Source: Pocillopora damicornis (taxonomy: Eukaryota). From it: a stretch of DNA of 64,000 bases. The stretch is from the NCBI RefSeq assembly GCF_003704095.1, contig NW_020843958.1:62001-126000 (forward strand). Direction: 5' to 3'. Positions within the stretch are counted from its first letter, which is position 1, and each line of letters opens with the position of its first letter. Made by a program: the position numbers. This document shows, piece after piece, positions 45,001 through 51,000 of the stretch.

Positions 45001-48000
45001 ATATATCCGGGAGGAATCCCTGCTTTTTTTGTTTACTTCCGTGTTGAAGAACTCCACGGGACTCCCGAAAGTATCGCAAGGAGACAACCTTGAAAAAATT
45101 TAAACAATCACGCTGCAAGCAAAAGTATACTTATTACTGACGTTCCTTTCTACTGATGAAAGGCTAATGTGCCAATTTTCGAAATGATAGTTCTCAGTCG
45201 TATAATAAATCGAAATTTTCGTTTTCAGTAAAATGGGAAAATGATGAATAATAAGCTATTTACATCCGTTTTAATCGAAGAAACCAAATAGAAATGGCTT
45301 TTTTCATAGCTCTCAAGGTTCACTGAGTAAAGTTTAATTAATATTCCAAAGTACATGGGTATTCCGTTTTCGAAAGTTCGAAGAGGAATGTTTATTTTAC
45401 TAGCTAAAGCTGTGTCGAAAGTTAACCTCACCAGGCAAGGCCCTCTGTGAATTAGCGAATCATGTGAGAGGTGCTTGCGCTTCCGTGAAGATTAAACTTT
45501 TGAAGTGCACGAAAGATTTATGATCGTTTTTCGGTTTTGATTTCCGAGCTTCCTTTTCGGGCCCGTGTTATTTTTTCCCTGTAACGTTATGATAATGCGA
45601 TTTTAACTGAAACAGACTTGACATGTAGCTCACGTGATACGAGATTTTGGCCTGTTGTTGTCGACCCGAAGCAAATAATTTGTCGACGAATGATTTACTG
45701 ACGGACAAATGTTCGGTTCGTCAGAATATAATTATCGTCCTTGCATGACTGAGTAATGAGTTAACTGGCCAGCAAGTTTACTTTAAGCAAAGGCTTAAAA
45801 AAAATGTCCTCGATAAAGAGACAAAATGAAAAGGCTAAAACTGCTATAGTGGCGCTAAAACAGGAAAATGGAAATGATGTCTGTGCGGACTGCAGCAAGC
45901 AAGGTAACAGTGTCAAGTTAAGTGAGATATGGTTAGATGTTCCCTAGTGTTATTAACGAGTTCACTAATGTATCCATACAAATGGCAATTAACTGCCGTG
46001 GGTAGCTGCGCAGAACCCTATTCTTGTAAAGGTTGTGAACGAAGCCCTAGAAAAAGGCGGCAAGGTTTCGAACAGACGAAATGTCTATTTGTTTTGAACG
46101 TCGGTGCCTCGACGAAAGCTGTGCTCTAATTAAGGTCGTTAATTAGAGGTGCCAGTTTCTTTCCGTCGTAGTACCATCATTTCGCTTTTGTAATAAGAGG
46201 AGTTTTATAAGCTCTCCAACAGGAAGGTAAATAAAGCCCCGCATTTGAACTGACAAACTGATCAACTCATAGGGCTCAGACCAAGAATTACTCTGAAGGA
46301 TGAACCGATGTGACACTTCCTAATGAGCTTAAGCTTTGAAATTAGCATATATGGTTTCCCATTACAGATCCTAGGTTCACTTGTCTGAAGAAAGGATTAT
46401 TCTTATGCCAAAACTGTGCTCAAGTCCACACTAGTTTTGGAGGTACAAATTCAAGGATCAAATCTATTGATCTGGGAAACTGGAATGACGAAACTCTACA
46501 GGTAATGTTCACCGCATTATTCAACTATTTGAATCACCTTAGAGACAAACTACGTATTTGCCTTGGATGTATTTCACGTCGTGCGATTACTTGACAATCA
46601 CGAATGAGAAAGTTGTAGTTTTTTTTTTATCCTAAAGGCCTTTCTAAATTATCCAGATTGATGATATTCATGAGATGTATTTGTGGAATCGCGCTCTAAG
46701 ATGCCGATTCGCGCTATTGAACATGCAATGTTTTCTTACGTTACGCACGAAGCCTTGTCACGTGACAACGGTCACGATATCAATAAATAGGGATTTCAAT
46801 TTCATTTGGGTTGGTTTATAAGCTATTAGTCTAACTGGATAACAGTTAACGTAAGCACCAAATCTACATTTAAATTGTACACACACTCAGAACAGCAACA
46901 CAAAACCCATTTCAATGACACTTCCTTGTTTAGTAGTCTGTAAAGATCTGTCTGTCAAGGAAGTGGTTTTGTTTAAGCGATTGACGTAGTTTGGGCAATA
47001 CTGCAAACTTTCGTGGTCTTGTTTCGCGGTTCATCAGAGAACCAGATTTCTACCATTCCTGCTGAAGTCATGACAGAGTAAACAATGCTACTCTATTCGC
47101 TAAGCAACGGAATCTTTCAGGCCCTTAAGGCGCCCATATGGTGGAGAAATTTGTTCATCTGCGGTGTAACTGCCAAAACCAGTTCCCCTCTGCTGGCAAA
47201 GCTAAAGAAAAACGGATAATTTTTCAGTGGCTTTTAATAGCAAATTGACTGAAAATTACAATGGAAATACTGATCGAGTTCCTTGCCACATACTCTGTTT
47301 TGAACTATACCTTGACCATTATTACCTGAAAGTGCTTTTACTCAAGTCTGCGGCTAATTTTCTTTGCCAATTTTGCTCCTTAAGAAATAATGCTCGTTAT
47401 TTATTCTCGCAAAGGAAAACTCGTTCGTGACTCTCGTTAAGAAAAACTTGCTGGAGTACGATTTCCCTTTATCTTCCGTAATTTCCTTGACGAACATCCG
47501 GCTTTGTTAAGTTACCTGAATTTGCAAGTTCTTCTTCGACGTGGAAAATTTTTCTTCTTCAACTTTATGAGCCTGAAAAGCTCATACTTAAATCTTTTAA
47601 AAAGAAAGATGTTGTACATTATAAATTGAAAAATCATAGGGTCCAAACCTACTAGTCTCTAACTATACGTATACTTTGACTTGGAAGTTATAACCAGTGT
47701 AGCTTTTTATGGCAACACTCACGAGGTAACTGGCGATAGCAGTTAAGCTAACATTCAAGAATTTGTGCTATTTGAATTCACTCAATGGTTTAATTTTACC
47801 AACATAGTAAAAACATTATACTATCGGAACTAAACCTCATATTTAAACAAACCTTTCAAAAACGTAACTATTCGAAATAATCCCATCTCTACGAGTGATT
47901 TTTTCCATATTCGCACGTAGAAGTCCTATCCGCTTGTTTCTGCTCGTTTCCAAATGTGGGTTTCATGTGGTTCCATGTGGTTTCAAATGACTTTATGTTG

Positions 48001-51000
48001 CGCAAAGAATGGGAATGAATTACGGTACTAGAGGAAATGATGCGAGTACTTCCCCCACCCCCTGTTGGTACGCGATGGATTCGCTGCATTCAAAATGACG
48101 GAAAAGAACAGAGTGGCGATATTAGAGTTGATGAAACAGCCTTCAAACAACACATGTGCGGATTGCGGAGCTCCAAGTAAGAATTTTAAGCTAAGGTCGT
48201 CATTCTACTTCGCCAGAGGGCCCACTCTGAAAATTTATTATGAATTTTCGTTTGGTTCCCTTCGAAACTTCCTGTAATGTTTTGTCGTGCAGATCCCGAA
48301 TGGTCATCGGCGTCAAAAGGGCTGTTCATTTGTATCACGTGCAGTGGAATTCATCGGAATTTAGGACCTCAGCTCTCTGTGGTCAAGAGTCTGAGGCTTG
48401 ATACTTGGACCGATGAAAAATTGAAGGTAAACTCGATATTAGTCGTGGTGTGTGCGACTTTCAGTGCGTCAAAGCGCTAAGATTCCTCTTAAAATCTTAC
48501 AATACCCCGTGTGTTCTCAGATATCACTGCTCTAAACCATCTTCTCCGATCATTTGACTTTATTAGTAAATTATGAAAAGGCTTAATTCAATTTTTTTGT
48601 CAGGTTTAGCCATGAGTTTCTGAAATCAACACTAACACATACATAGGATTTACGCCGAAAACCTGGAAAATACTCAGTTCGAATCTTTATCAACAAGGTC
48701 ACCACCTTGATTTTTTCGCTGTACTCCGCCTTAATTATCTCTGCCAGGAAAATCATCCATTGCATAAGCAGTGATGAGATATTTCAAAGAGTTTCCTATT
48801 CATTTCCTTGCTCAGCTGTAATTTATCAGAAATGTTTACAATGCAAAATTAACGTGACCATTTGTATTGATTACAGTTCAATTGACGTCTATAATTATCT
48901 TATTGAGTTTTCCGAAATAAATATTCAATATAACAGCTATTATGAACAACAAATAAATACAAAACGGTTGTGTTCAAATTCCATATTATGACTGGCACGA
49001 GAAGTCAACAGGAAACAAAGATAATCGTATAAGCTGTACTGTGACATTTGTTCTACGGACAAATATGTAGAAAATCTAAAAAATTATACGTATCAGAATT
49101 AATCAAGATAAAGAGAAAGGCCCAGAGTTGAACGGCAAAAATATTTTTTCATTTTATCTTAGAGCTAAGTGACTGCATAGTTTAGAATTAACATACTATT
49201 TATAGGATATAATTGTAACAAAGATATTTCTAGAAATAATTTACTAATGCCTGTTTCCTGAGGATTCTACATTTGTTTATAGCTTGTTAATTGTTTGTTG
49301 TGATTCAGTATTTTTTAAGGTTTAAAAACTTTCAATCCCATTTTATAGTTATTAATTATTATTATTTGTTTTGTATGATACACAAGAAAAATGTTGTTTA
49401 TGGTGATATCATGTAGGTGTATGTCCTCTTATAGATCATAACTAAGATCCAGCTAATTATATAAAATATTTTAATATGAAATATGAACATATTTGACATT
49501 TATCATTTTTTAACCCTATAACCCCTAAGAGTGAGTGGCATCTAATTTCTCCTTACAGTATCTGGGCTGAATCAAACATAATGGTTGGGAGAATAAAGGA
49601 AATGATCACAAACTAAAGAAGCTCTTGACTTGTCAAGCAAATTCTCCTTGTCAGCACATTAGTAAATGTGTTGATAACAACATAAAGAATATCAATATTG
49701 ATATTTGAAAGGAAATATATTCATATTACTGGGTCAAACTATTAGTAAGTCTACTTGTTCTCTTTTCTGTTTTCTTTTTTGAAACCCTTAAGCTGACTGC
49801 CAATTATTTATTTGACAAATACTTTCCTATTTTTAATTCTTGAAGTAACTATACACAATCCCCCAGTTAAAAAAATTGGAGAAATTGTCAACGGTTCGTC
49901 AACCAATAAAATTTAATCCTCATATATCTTCAGGTGTAGGAGTAATTTATCGCTTTTCATCTGAGATTTTCAATTGACTTCCTGGTATCACCTAGTCTCC
50001 TTTGCAGCCATTCATTTTTTGGATGTCACACAATTCTTTTGGAGGGAACATTGCTTGACATCCAAAGAATGGCTCCATAGGAGACTAGGTATCACCAGGT
50101 AGGCATTTATTGTAACAAAGCAAGTCTGCAGACTGATACTAAAACCAAAAATAACAACCAAACAACCAAACAACATGCCCAAAAAATTTTAACTGTAATT
50201 TAGTATTTTACATGTAAGGAAATCACCACAATTTATTTAAGTGGAGTGAAAAAGAAAAGAATTTTGCAACACAGTGACTGTCAACTGTTGTCTTAACCTT
50301 TTAACTCCCAAGATCTCATTATTAATTCTCTTTACTGTCTGTCAAGTGATTCTCATCATGTTAGTCTGGAGAATTTGGTTTTGGATTAATTAGTAATCCC
50401 ATAATTGATATTTTTCTTCATTCTCATCACTTGTAAGGAGAAATTCTGTCTTGGTCACTCATGGGGTTTAAAGGGTTAACTAAGACACTTTGGAAAATAA
50501 GATAAAAGGGAGCAGATTGAATAATTCAATAATGACATAATAGTAATTGAACAACCAGGCAATTTAAATGTGTTAGCTTGTTATCGAGTATACAGCAGAT
50601 CAGAAATTATTTTAATTATTTTCTTATACATTTATTGATGCATGTCTTTCAGATCAACTTTTTATGTACTGACATTTTTTAAGTTAACAATATTCTGTTT
50701 ACAAATAATTATAAATATTATCAGTCAGAGCACCAGTAATGTTTCAATAACGATCAAGCAGTCTTGGAATCTCGTTGATATTTGTCTGACATTGTCATGT
50801 AGAACTGAGTGGAGAGAGATATTGTACAGCAGGTAAATAAACTGTGGACCAGACGCCCTTGGTGTTAAGTCAAACAATTTCTTATAATAATCTTTTTTTC
50901 TTGCTCCTGTTGTTTTCTTTTCTTCTTCTTAGTTTATGGAAGAGCATGGTAATGCTAAGGGGAATGCTGTATGGGCCAAGAACGTCCCTCTTTGCTATCG

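What the first reader, a model, noticed from the sequence alone, without database searches (positions are those of the whole stretch)
45804..48426. ADAP gene with two interchangeable ArfGAP N-termini, one predicted catalytically dead
Seen: exons 1-2 exist twice (45804-45903 with 46368-46501, and 48095-48176 with 48293-48426). Both have the same intron phase, the same 134-nt second exon, their own ATG, intact splice sites and no stops, yet the sequences are deeply diverged. Both can splice in phase 0 to the shared exon at 50933. Established: ArfGAPs need CX2CX16CX2CX4R, with the Arg as catalytic finger. The proximal copy reads CITCSGIHR. The distal copy keeps all four Cys with exact spacing but reads CQNCAQVHT and also lacks the conserved Trp (PEW becomes PRF). 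Inference: an alternative-promoter switch produces an active GAP or a pseudo-GAP on the same phosphoinositide-binding dual-PH body, possibly an Arf effector or dominant negative. I know of no description of this for ADAP genes.
Basis: partly seen in the sequence, partly recalled or inferred. Interest (0 to 1): 0.75.

Follow-up and report, generated by a model that had tools for sequence, protein, structure and literature searches.

The report
ADAP gene with duplicated ArfGAP start
An ADAP-type signalling gene carries two old, diverged copies of the two exons that start its Arf-switch-off domain. The upstream copy has lost the catalytic arginine, so the gene may make a working and a "dead" version of the protein, but whether the upstream copy is used is untested.

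Summary
Exons 1a/2a (45804-45903, 46368-46501) and 1b/2b (48095-48176, 48293-48426) are paralogous cassettes. Each has its own ATG, a phase-1 intron, a 134-nt second exon, GT/AG sites and no stops. Both end in phase 0 before the single shared exon 3 (50933-51024). Exon 2a passes Pfam ArfGap (42.2 bits, cutoff 28.7). It reads Thr where the invariant Arg finger sits, and Phe and Gln where 5 of 5 displayed solved ArfGAPs have Trp and Ile.

The copies are old: 27/71 residues identical, synonymous sites saturated. A neutral-decay null never kept ORF, ATG, four Cys and splice sites together (0 of 400,000), so the distal cassette was long held as coding sequence.

The alternative-promoter reading is plausible but untested, and incomplete. 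In a distal transcript exon 2b is still a usable internal exon. 2a+2b together gives a stop, and 1a→2b is also in frame. So 2a and 2b must behave as mutually exclusive exons. CpG depletion begins about 0.9 kb after the proximal ATG, so the distal start is not the main germline promoter.

No transcripts or related genomes could be consulted. Verdict: a real and fairly interesting new variant of a known kind (tandem 5'-exon duplication giving homologous N-termini).

The parts
45804..45903 (+). Exon 1a (distal copy). Starts with ATG and encodes 33 codons plus 1 base. Holds Cys1 and Cys2 (CADC). Donor G|gtaaca, phase 1.
   Evidence: Pfam ArfGap profile positions 3-21, 15.3 bits, below cutoff. 10/27 residues identical to 1b.
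46368..46501 (+). Exon 2a (distal copy), 134 nt. Holds Cys3 and Cys4. Has Thr at the Arg-finger position, Phe for Trp, and Gln for Ile. Ends in phase 0.
   Evidence: Pfam ArfGap 42.2 bits against cutoff 28.7. Best PDB hit is SMAP1-like, E 7.4e-6. The ESM Atlas nearest clusters all carry ArfGap.
48095..48176 (+). Exon 1b (proximal copy). Starts with ATG and encodes 27 codons plus 1 base. Holds CADC. Donor A|gtaaga, phase 1.
48293..48426 (+). Exon 2b (proximal copy), 134 nt, with the canonical ...CITCSGIHR. Ends in phase 0.
   Evidence: Pfam ArfGap 60.2 bits. PDB ArfGAP hits down to E 2.5e-13, and centaurin-alpha-1 at 1.2e-11.
50933..51024 (+). Shared exon 3, single copy. Continues the ArfGap domain (profile 68-96). 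Phase 0 acceptor, donor gtaagt at 51025.
51654..51736 (+). Exon 4: end of the ArfGAP domain and the linker.
   Evidence: The only PDB hits are centaurin-alpha-1, E 4.9e-4.
51959..52071 (+). Exon 5: start of the first PH domain.
   Evidence: Pfam PH 17.3 bits, below the 25.1 cutoff.
52497..52643 (+). Exon 6: middle of the first PH domain, assigned by position.
   Evidence: No Pfam hit on its own.
53177..53260 (+). Exon 7: end of the first PH domain and linker, assigned by position.
53823..53885 (+). Exon 8: start of the second PH domain, assigned by position.
53935..54034 (.). Run of N inside the gene. It hides part of the second PH domain. I did not fill it.
54037..54321 (+). Last readable coding piece: the C-terminal part of the second PH domain. 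The 3' end is not resolved.
   Evidence: Pfam PH 29.9 bits against cutoff 25.1. Best PDB hits are centaurin-alpha-1 residues 338-381.
43001..49000 (.). CpG-normal domain (o/e 0.73-1.20 in 11 of 11 one-kb windows). It contains both cassettes. The gene body from 49001 to 54000 is CpG-depleted (0.11-0.33 in 9 of 9 windows).

Best explanation
The first two coding exons of an ADAP-type gene (ArfGAP zinc finger plus two PH domains) were duplicated in tandem long ago. Both cassettes have since been kept as spliceable coding sequence. The proximal cassette (1b/2b) starts the ordinary protein and sits at the main promoter.

The distal cassette (1a/2a) is used from a weaker or tissue-restricted start upstream of 45804. 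It is joined 1a-2a-3, skipping exon 2b. Exons 2a and 2b are each 134 nt, which is not a multiple of three. Only transcripts with exactly one of them stay in frame, so they act as mutually exclusive exons.

The resulting isoform keeps the zinc-binding fold on the same dual-PH body. It has Thr for the arginine finger and has also lost the conserved Trp and Ile. It therefore cannot stimulate GTP hydrolysis on Arf and probably no longer docks on Arf. It would act as a phosphoinositide-bound scaffold, competing with the canonical isoform for membrane sites or partners.

Shown here: the duplication, the phase logic, the residue changes and the long-term constraint. Inferred: transcription, the 2a-to-3 junction and everything about function.
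For: 1. Paralogy and architecture. The two cassettes have the same intron phases and the same 134-nt exon 2. Each has its own ATG and intact GT/AG sites. 2a versus 2b gives E 6e-13. There is no third copy and no second exon 3.

2. 2a is still recognisably ArfGap: 42.2 bits against a cutoff of 28.7, PDB SMAP hits at 7e-6, and 30 of 30 Atlas hits in ArfGap clusters.

3. The split is old and was constrained.
- pS is 0.89 (saturated) and pN is 0.43.
- Identity by codon position is 37/71, 38/71 and 25/71.
- Flanking intron identity over 60-nt ungapped stretches is 25-40%.
- In 400,000 simulated neutral decays of the proximal cassette to the observed 47% nucleotide identity, an open frame survived in 5,289. 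The ATG survived in 41,141, the four Cys in 148 and the three splice dinucleotides in 4,259. All together survived in 0.
- The chance that 78 random codons of this window are open is 0.009.

4. Phase logic.
- 2a→3 and 2b→3 are both phase 0.
- 2a→2b gives a stop after 23 codons.
- Reading, 1a→3 directly also runs into TAA within six codons.

5. Loss of catalysis. CX2CX16CX2CX4R with an invariant Arg required for activity is stated in PMC2542466 and PMC6724607 (passages). A bioRxiv preprint (10.1101/2019.12.18.881771, passages) says the same of GIT R39 and ASAP3 R469. All 5 of 5 solved ArfGAPs aligned to 2a have W, I and R where 2a has F, Q and T.

6. The class exists. Tandemly duplicated 5' coding exons with alternative promoters giving homologous N-termini are described as a known and usually conserved kind of event in PMC8373072 (passages).
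Against: - No transcript, cap-site or cross-species evidence could be obtained.
- Exon 2b is a competent internal exon in any transcript begun at 1a. Default inclusion would make a stop-containing mRNA.
- I found no convincing long-range RNA pairing that could loop 1b/2b out. There are 24 inverted pairs of 14 nt or more in 5.6 kb. The best cross-intron pairs are 21-22 nt at 81-82%, which is the quality expected by chance.
- CpG o/e stays at 0.94-1.04 from 46.0 to 49.0 kb and falls only from about 49 kb. The two neighbouring genes also become depleted about 1 kb after their 5' ends. By that analogy (n = 2) the distal start is not the main germline start.
- pN is high (0.43), so omega on the distal branch cannot be bounded. 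The loss of three otherwise conserved residues could equally be the first stage of decay.
- A recent loss of function would leave exactly this picture.
- Single-exon AlphaFold models were too poor to say anything about the fold (pLDDT 48.6 and 64.1).
Confidence: 0.5

Rival explanations
1. Relic cassette. The distal exons were functional for a long time, either as an alternative 5' cassette or as the head of a once-complete tandem ADAP paralogue whose body was lost. They are now silent, and too little time has passed for stops or splice-site losses to appear.
For: - Three residues conserved in 5 of 5 displayed solved ArfGAPs and in the proximal copy are replaced.
- The Pfam score is lower than for 2b (42.2 against 60.2 bits).
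- pN is high.
- The cassette lies in a CpG-normal, intergenic-like domain, and gene-body CpG depletion starts only after the proximal cassette.
- There is no second copy of exon 3 or of later exons.
Against: - The ORF, the ATG, four Cys with exact spacing, and three splice dinucleotides are all intact. None of 400,000 neutral decays kept them all.
- The changes are concentrated on the catalytic and Arf-facing positions, while the structural positions (Cys, G-L-F, H, S-x-x-K-S, W, D/E-E) are kept. That looks like a changed function rather than general relaxation.
- CpG-normal sequence is also what tissue-specific, germline-silent promoters show (recalled knowledge).
Confidence: 0.27
2. The distal promoter is real, but its main product is 1a-2b-3. 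That is the normal, Arg-bearing ArfGAP with a different 33-residue leader. Exon 2a is then a minor alternative or a regulatory 'poison' exon whose co-inclusion with 2b triggers nonsense-mediated decay.
For: - Both first introns are phase 1, so 1a→2b is in frame. It keeps the C-x16-C spacing (junction codon G|AT).
- 2a+2b gives a premature stop.
Against: - A mere poison exon would not need to keep an ArfGap-scoring reading frame with both zinc ligands over a saturated synonymous distance.
- 2a has a normal acceptor and donor, and it lies closer to 1a than 2b does.
Confidence: 0.15
3. A separate short gene. 1a-2a is transcribed with read-through into the intron, which is in frame up to the stop after 46591. 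It ends at a nearby AATAAA (about 46783), giving a zinc-finger-only mini-protein of roughly 108 residues.
For: The frame stays open 30 codons past the 2a donor (ORF 46346-46591). An AATAAA lies about 280 nt downstream (read).
Against: - Half an ArfGAP domain is unlikely to fold.
- The 2a donor CAG|gtaatg is conserved in position and phase with that of 2b, which only matters if it is spliced.
- The read-through peptide matches nothing I tested.
Confidence: 0.04
4. Chance open frames that merely resemble an ArfGAP finger.
For: None beyond the shortness of the exons.
Against: - Pfam gives E 1e-10, above the curated cutoff, and BLASTP to 2b gives 6e-13.
- Exon length and phases are identical in the two cassettes.
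- The only other look-alike in 64 kb is a 7-residue CADCSKK at 16270-16290, with no finger after it.
Confidence: 0.01

Closest known systems
ADAP1 / centaurin-alpha-1 (ArfGAP with dual PH domains; PDB 3FEH, 3LJU, 3FM8, 3MDB)
   Same: - An N-terminal C4 ArfGAP finger is followed by two PH domains.
- For exon 4 the only PDB hits, and for the last PH exon the best PDB hits, are this protein.
- Exon 2b hits it at E 1.2e-11.
   Different: - No second, Arg-less copy of the finger exons is described for ADAP genes in what I could search (searches found none; the library is limited).
- The gene here is incomplete because of an N run in the second PH domain.
- Exon 2a hits centaurin-alpha-1 only at E 0.58.
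Tandem exon duplication-derived N-terminal substitutions driven by alternative promoters (reviewed for human genes in PMC8373072; protocadherin-type variable first exons)
   Same: - Adjacent homologous 5' coding exons, each with its own start, join one common downstream exon set.
- Such events are reported as old and conserved (passages).
   Different: - Here the unit is a two-exon cassette, so the second exon pair must also be chosen in a mutually exclusive way.
- Usage is not demonstrated.
- One copy has lost a catalytic residue rather than being subtly tuned.
Mutually exclusive exons kept exclusive by reading-frame incompatibility
   Same: 2a and 2b are homologous and of equal length (134 nt, not divisible by 3). 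Both together or neither gives a premature stop (reading).
   Different: - 2b is preceded by its own first exon and presumably its own promoter.
- No selector or docking RNA pairing was found.
- That frame incompatibility plus NMD enforces exclusivity is recalled knowledge.
Engineered GAP-dead ArfGAPs (arginine-finger substitutions, e.g. GIT R39, ASAP3 R469)
   Same: They have the same fold with the finger Arg replaced, and loss of GAP activity on mutating this Arg is stated.
   Different: - Those are laboratory point mutants that keep the rest of the Arf interface.
- The distal copy is natural and also lacks the conserved Trp and Ile.
- A search for 'pseudoGAP' together with 'ArfGAP' found 0 papers.
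SMAP1/SMAP2 small ArfGAPs (PDB 2IQJ, 2CRR)
   Same: They are the best solved-structure hits of exon 2a (E 7.4e-6 and 1.5e-5). By my count on the alignment, 17/44 residues are identical, the same as 2a versus 2b.
   Different: - 2b also ranks SMAP above centaurin-alpha-1, so this ranking does not point to a foreign origin of 2a.
- SMAPs have the Arg finger and no PH domains.
- Origin by local duplication rests on position, orientation, exon length and phases, not on higher similarity.

Membership tests
ArfGAP domain (Pfam PF01412) | Sequence match to the family profile above the curated cutoff | tested here: met
   Exon 2a scores 42.2 bits and exon 2b 60.2 bits against a cutoff of 28.7. Exons 1a, 1b and 3 match the adjoining profile positions below cutoff. 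I tested exon by exon; the joined domain was not searched.
ArfGAP domain (Pfam PF01412) | C4 zinc finger with spacing CX2CX16CX2C | tested here: met
   Both cassettes have CADC, then 16 residues (counted across the split codon), then CxxC. The motif is as stated in PMC2542466. Zinc binding itself is not testable here.
ArfGAP domain (Pfam PF01412) | Invariant arginine four residues after Cys4 (catalytic finger) | tested here: not met
   The distal copy has Thr (…CAQVHT). The proximal copy has Arg (…CSGIHR). So the proximal cassette is a full member. The distal cassette has the fold signature but fails the catalytic criterion.
ArfGAP domain (Pfam PF01412) | Stimulates GTP hydrolysis on Arf | not testable with these tools
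   This needs a biochemical assay. PMC2542466 notes that ADAPs lacked in vitro GAP activity at that date.
ADAP subfamily (ArfGAP with dual PH domains) | ArfGAP domain at the N-terminus followed by two PH domains and nothing else | tested here: inconclusive
   - The ArfGAP exons come first.
- The start of the first PH domain scores 17.3 bits, below the 25.1 cutoff.
- The end of the second PH domain scores 29.9 bits, above cutoff.
- The middle of the second PH domain lies in or near the N run 53935-54034, and the 3' end is unresolved.
ADAP subfamily (ArfGAP with dual PH domains) | Closest solved relative is centaurin-alpha-1 outside the shared ArfGAP core | tested here: met
   For exon 4 the only hits are centaurin-alpha-1 (E 4.9e-4). 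For the last PH exon the best hits are centaurin-alpha-1 residues 338-381 (E 0.0066-0.0078). The exon 5 search did not return it.
Tandem exon duplication-derived N-terminal substitution (alternative promoter) | Adjacent homologous 5' coding exons with the same phase, each able to join the common exons | tested here: met
Tandem exon duplication-derived N-terminal substitution (alternative promoter) | Transcripts that carry one or the other copy; a promoter at each | not testable with these tools
   No expression data were available. The CpG profile suggests that the proximal start is the main germline one.
Tandem exon duplication-derived N-terminal substitution (alternative promoter) | Both copies conserved in related species | not testable with these tools
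   The protein databases were closed and the only open genome collection is prokaryotic.
Mutually exclusive exon pair | Including both or neither destroys the reading frame | tested here: met
   2b read in the frame left by 2a has a stop at codon 24. 1a joined straight to exon 3 reads into TAA (by eye).

The most novel reading that the evidence does not exclude
An anciently fixed, selectively maintained two-exon switch in an invertebrate ADAP gene swaps a catalytic ArfGAP finger for a natural 'pseudo-GAP' finger. The swapped finger has lost the Arg finger and the Arf-facing Trp and Ile, while the PIP-binding dual-PH body stays the same. It would be the first natural ArfGAP pseudo-enzyme isoform. 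It would separate the scaffold and lipid-sensor role of ADAP proteins from their disputed GAP role within one gene.
Probability: 0.35. Interest if true: 0.65.

Novelty: new variant of a known kind. Interest (0 to 1): 0.5.

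Why it matters
ADAP/centaurin-alpha proteins are phosphoinositide sensors. Whether they act mainly as Arf6 GAPs or as scaffolds has been debated, and their in vitro GAP activity was reported as lacking in the 2008 nomenclature paper.

A gene that encodes, side by side, a canonical finger and a long-maintained finger without the catalytic Arg would be a natural separation-of-function experiment. 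The distal isoform would show what the protein does when it cannot act on Arf. It would also add the ArfGAP family to the list of enzyme families with natural pseudo-enzyme forms, here made by exon choice rather than by a separate gene.

If the cassette turns out to be silent, it is an ordinary relic of a partial tandem duplication.

Tried and rejected
Second copy of exon 3 or other ArfGAP pieces. A tblastn at E up to 100 found none. The 7-residue CADCSKK at 16270-16290 has no finger after it and is chance.

Genes on the minus strand between 43.4 and 48.1 kb. Only short, composition-like open frames are there.

RNA pairing that could loop out 1b/2b. The inverted-repeat search gave 24 pairs. 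The strongest (45 nt, 49972-50108) is a local hairpin inside intron 2. The cross-intron pairs are 14-22 nt at 81-93%. One pair joins the 3' end of exon 2a (46471-46491) to intron 1b (48197-48217) with 21 nt at 81%. I treat all of these as chance.

Structure. AlphaFold2 on single exons 2a and 2b without an alignment gave mean pLDDT 48.6 and 64.1. That is too low to interpret, so I ran no fold search. The whole domain could not be folded because the joined, spliced sequence was deliberately not built.

ESM Atlas on 2a. It only repeats 'ArfGap'.

dN/dS. Synonymous sites are saturated, so no ratio can be given, only pN and pS.

Literature.
- Searches were aimed at natural Arg-less ArfGAPs and at the roles of the Trp and Ile. 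Nothing usable on either came back. The ASAP1 W479/I490 interface work is recalled and unverified.
- looked for ADAP isoforms or exon duplication. There were 0 relevant papers. One search was badly designed, and none of its 12 listed papers held ADAP1 or ADAP2.
- PMC8888757 (passages) only says that a GAP mutant of human ADAP1 is less stable.
- PMC4780780 was seen as a search listing only.
- Supplements were closed and not requested. They could bear on isoform tables of coral transcriptome papers.

Organism. I do not take the window for human.

The 'acetyltransferase-like' look of the upstream gene is by eye and from recall. Pfam found 0 families for 3 of 3 of its exon frames that I tried.

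Full report
What is there.

- Exon 1a (45804-45903) and exon 1b (48095-48176) each begin with the first ATG of their open frame. Each encodes a short helix and the first Cys pair (CADC). Each ends one base into a codon at a GT donor.
- Exon 2a (46368-46501) and exon 2b (48293-48426) are both 134 nt. Both start after an AG, complete that codon, encode the second Cys pair and end in phase 0 at a GT donor.
- The next coding exon starts at 50933 in phase 0 and exists only once.

A tblastn of every exon peptide against the whole 64 kb finds two copies of exons 1 and 2. It finds nothing resembling a second exon 3; the best other hit has E 0.26 and contains a stop.

I did not build, search or fold the joined sequence.

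Is it more than chance?

Yes. Exon 2a alone passes the Pfam ArfGap gathering score (42.2 bits against 28.7, E 1e-10), on the same profile positions (24-67) as exon 2b (60.2 bits). The two first exons match the preceding profile positions, and exon 3 the following ones. 2a versus 2b gives BLASTP E 6e-13 with 17/44 identities and no gap. 2a hits solved SMAP, ArfGAP, ACAP and GIT structures (16 sequences at E up to 10, best 7.4e-6).

The host gene.

Downstream exons at 51654-51736, 51959-52071, 52497-52643, 53177-53260 and 53823-53885 have canonical splice sites and consistent phases. A last readable piece runs from 54037.
- For exon 4, the only solved relatives are centaurin-alpha-1/ADAP1.
- For the last PH exon, the best solved relatives are the C-terminal PH domain of the same protein.
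- Pfam sees PH in the last piece above cutoff, and PH in exon 5 below cutoff.
- A run of N (53935-54034) sits inside the second PH domain. I left it alone, so 'dual PH' is only partly verified.

So 'ADAP gene' is a fair name. Exon 3 ends at 51024, not 51025, because the donor is gtaagt at 51025.

Age and constraint.
- The cassettes share 27/71 residues and 100/213 nucleotides.
- Identity is 37/71 and 38/71 at first and second codon positions but 25/71 at third positions.
- pS is 0.89, beyond saturation. pN is 0.43. Flanking intron sequence is at background identity.

So the duplication is old.

If the distal copy had simply decayed from something like the proximal copy to this level of divergence, it should not look like a gene. 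In 400,000 simulated decays:
- an open frame survived in 5,289;
- the ATG survived in 41,141;
- all four Cys codons survived in 148;
- the three splice dinucleotides survived in 4,259;
- everything together survived in 0 (an earlier, too-lenient version also gave 0).

This shows that most of the divergence happened under selection for a spliced coding sequence. It does not exclude a recent death. Because synonymous sites are saturated, it gives no dN/dS.

What changed.

The literature I could read states that ArfGAP domains carry CX2CX16CX2CX4R. It also states that the Arg is invariant and required, and that its mutation abolishes GAP activity (PMC2542466 and PMC6724607, passages; a bioRxiv preprint on GIT/PIX, passages).

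The proximal cassette has the full motif. The distal one keeps the four Cys with exact spacing but has Thr at the Arg position.

Two more changes stand out in the alignments printed. The Trp of the P-x-W motif is Phe in 2a. The Ile between Cys3 and Cys4 is Gln. All 5 of 5 displayed solved ArfGAPs, and 2b, have W, I and R there.

The positions that look structural are kept: G-L-F, His, S-x-x-K-S, the second Trp and the acidic pair.

My recollection is that the Trp and Ile lie on the Arf-binding face in ASAP1. My searches did not confirm this. If it is right, the distal finger has lost Arf recognition as well as catalysis. That fits a scaffold better than an Arf-GTP trap.

How the two cassettes could be used.

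A transcript that begins at 1a contains 2a, the promoter-proximal exon 1b (which has no acceptor), and exon 2b with good splice sites.
- 1a-2a-3 is in frame and gives the Arg-less form.
- 1a-2b-3 is also in frame. Both first introns are phase 1, the junction codon is GAT, and the x16 spacing is kept. It gives a normal finger with another leader.
- 1a-2a-2b-3 shifts the frame and stops after 23 codons of 2b.
- 1a-3 also runs into a stop (read).

So 2a and 2b behave as a mutually exclusive pair enforced by their length of 134 nt. The Arg-less isoform requires active skipping of 2b. I looked for intron-intron complementarity that might do this and found nothing above chance quality.

Promoter evidence.

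There is none that is direct. One indirect clue comes from CpG content.
- The window is sharply bimodal. 43-49 kb has CpG o/e 0.73-1.20 in 11 of 11 windows, while the ADAP gene body at 49-54 kb has 0.11-0.33 in 9 of 9 windows. GpC o/e is unremarkable (0.63-1.16).
- The neighbouring genes show the same switch about 1 kb after their 5' ends, at about 39.5-40 kb and about 58 kb.
- In animals with gene-body methylation, this depletion marks regions transcribed in the germline (recalled knowledge).
- Here it starts about 0.9 kb after the proximal ATG, and the 46-49 kb stretch is not depleted.

So the proximal start is the main germline promoter. The distal cassette lies in unmethylated, intergenic-like DNA. 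That fits either a tissue-restricted promoter or a silent relic.

The nearest upstream plus-strand coding sequence ends near 43.4 kb, which leaves 2.4 kb for a promoter. No convincing minus-strand gene lies in between.

Comparison with what is known.

Homologous N-termini produced by tandemly duplicated 5' coding exons and alternative promoters are a recognised class in human genes and are mostly ancient and conserved (PMC8373072, passages). Mutually exclusive homologous exons are likewise well known.

What I could not find in print is such an arrangement in an ArfGAP or ADAP gene, or a natural Arg-less ArfGAP isoform.
- 'pseudoGAP' plus 'ArfGAP' found 0 papers.
- 'ArfGAP' plus 'exon duplication' found 3 papers; the 2 listed are irrelevant.
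- ADAP isoform searches found nothing relevant.

The library is limited to open papers and preprints.

Verdict.

It is refined by the mutually exclusive logic of 2a and 2b, the in-frame 1a-2b alternative, the extra losses of Trp and Ile, and the CpG evidence that the distal start is not the main promoter.

My probabilities:
- about 0.5 that the distal cassette is a used alternative 5' end giving a GAP-dead ADAP isoform;
- about 0.27 that it is a recently silenced relic;
- about 0.15 that the distal start mainly feeds exon 2b;
- small remainders for a separate short gene or chance.

Conservation in other species and all expression evidence stayed unchecked.

Noticed in passing
window 36001-64000: CpG o/e is sharply bimodal, at about 0.05-0.3 in gene bodies against 0.7-1.2 in 5' ends and intergenic DNA. 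GpC o/e is normal. This is the pattern of germline gene-body methylation in an invertebrate-type genome, and it marks likely gene starts near 38-39.5 kb, 48 kb and 55-57.5 kb.
   Followed up: partly
window 49972-50108: A 45-nt inverted repeat (80% complementary, 47 nt apart) with a nested 22-nt pair lies inside ADAP intron 2. It looks like a small hairpin-forming transposon remnant.
   Followed up: no
window 46471-46491 and 48197-48217: The 3' end of exon 2a is complementary (21 nt, 81%) to intron sequence 20 nt after the exon 1b donor. It is of chance quality among 24 such pairs, but it sits where a splice-choice pairing could act.
   Followed up: no
window 54640-54860 and 55074-55293: Two near-identical open frames about 434 nt apart (…QGPSF.HL..PSEVAIR…DYTDN.NHTLTSSNF…) lie just downstream of the ADAP gene. 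They form a direct repeat of unknown nature.
   Followed up: no
window 58844-60118 (+): An open frame of 425 codons is extremely rich in Lys and Glu, with a recurring unit of about 45 residues (…KKKKK.K.E..ISE.K.E…). It runs into an N run at 59974. It has no Pfam family.
   Followed up: partly
window 38597-43383 (+): These are exons of the upstream neighbour, ending about 2.4 kb before exon 1a. By eye they resemble an N-acetyltransferase (recalled), but Pfam found 0 families for 3 of 3 exon frames tried.
   Followed up: partly
window 41398-41652 (+): A short internal tandem duplication is visible as a repeated peptide (…NWVLIHFF.IYIYIFNNSECTFIILDRN…) in an AT-rich intron of the upstream gene.
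   Followed up: no
window 9250-10452 (-): A single 400-codon open frame has WD40 repeats (56.1 bits) and a C-terminal SOCS box (24.4 bits against cutoff 23.5). It is a WSB-type gene or retrocopy.
   Followed up: partly
window 21260-25407 (+): Exons encode an F5/8 type C (discoidin) domain, a CUB domain and a SUEL-type lectin domain. A Ser/Pro/Thr-rich stretch and a likely membrane span follow. This looks like a modular surface receptor gene.
   Followed up: partly
window 30967-31749 and 37675-38091 (-): These are the C-terminal and N-terminal parts of an Aa_trans amino-acid transporter gene on the minus strand (56.1 and 19.1 bits). Its 5' end faces the upstream neighbour's 5' end near 38 kb, which suggests a bidirectional promoter region.
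   Followed up: no
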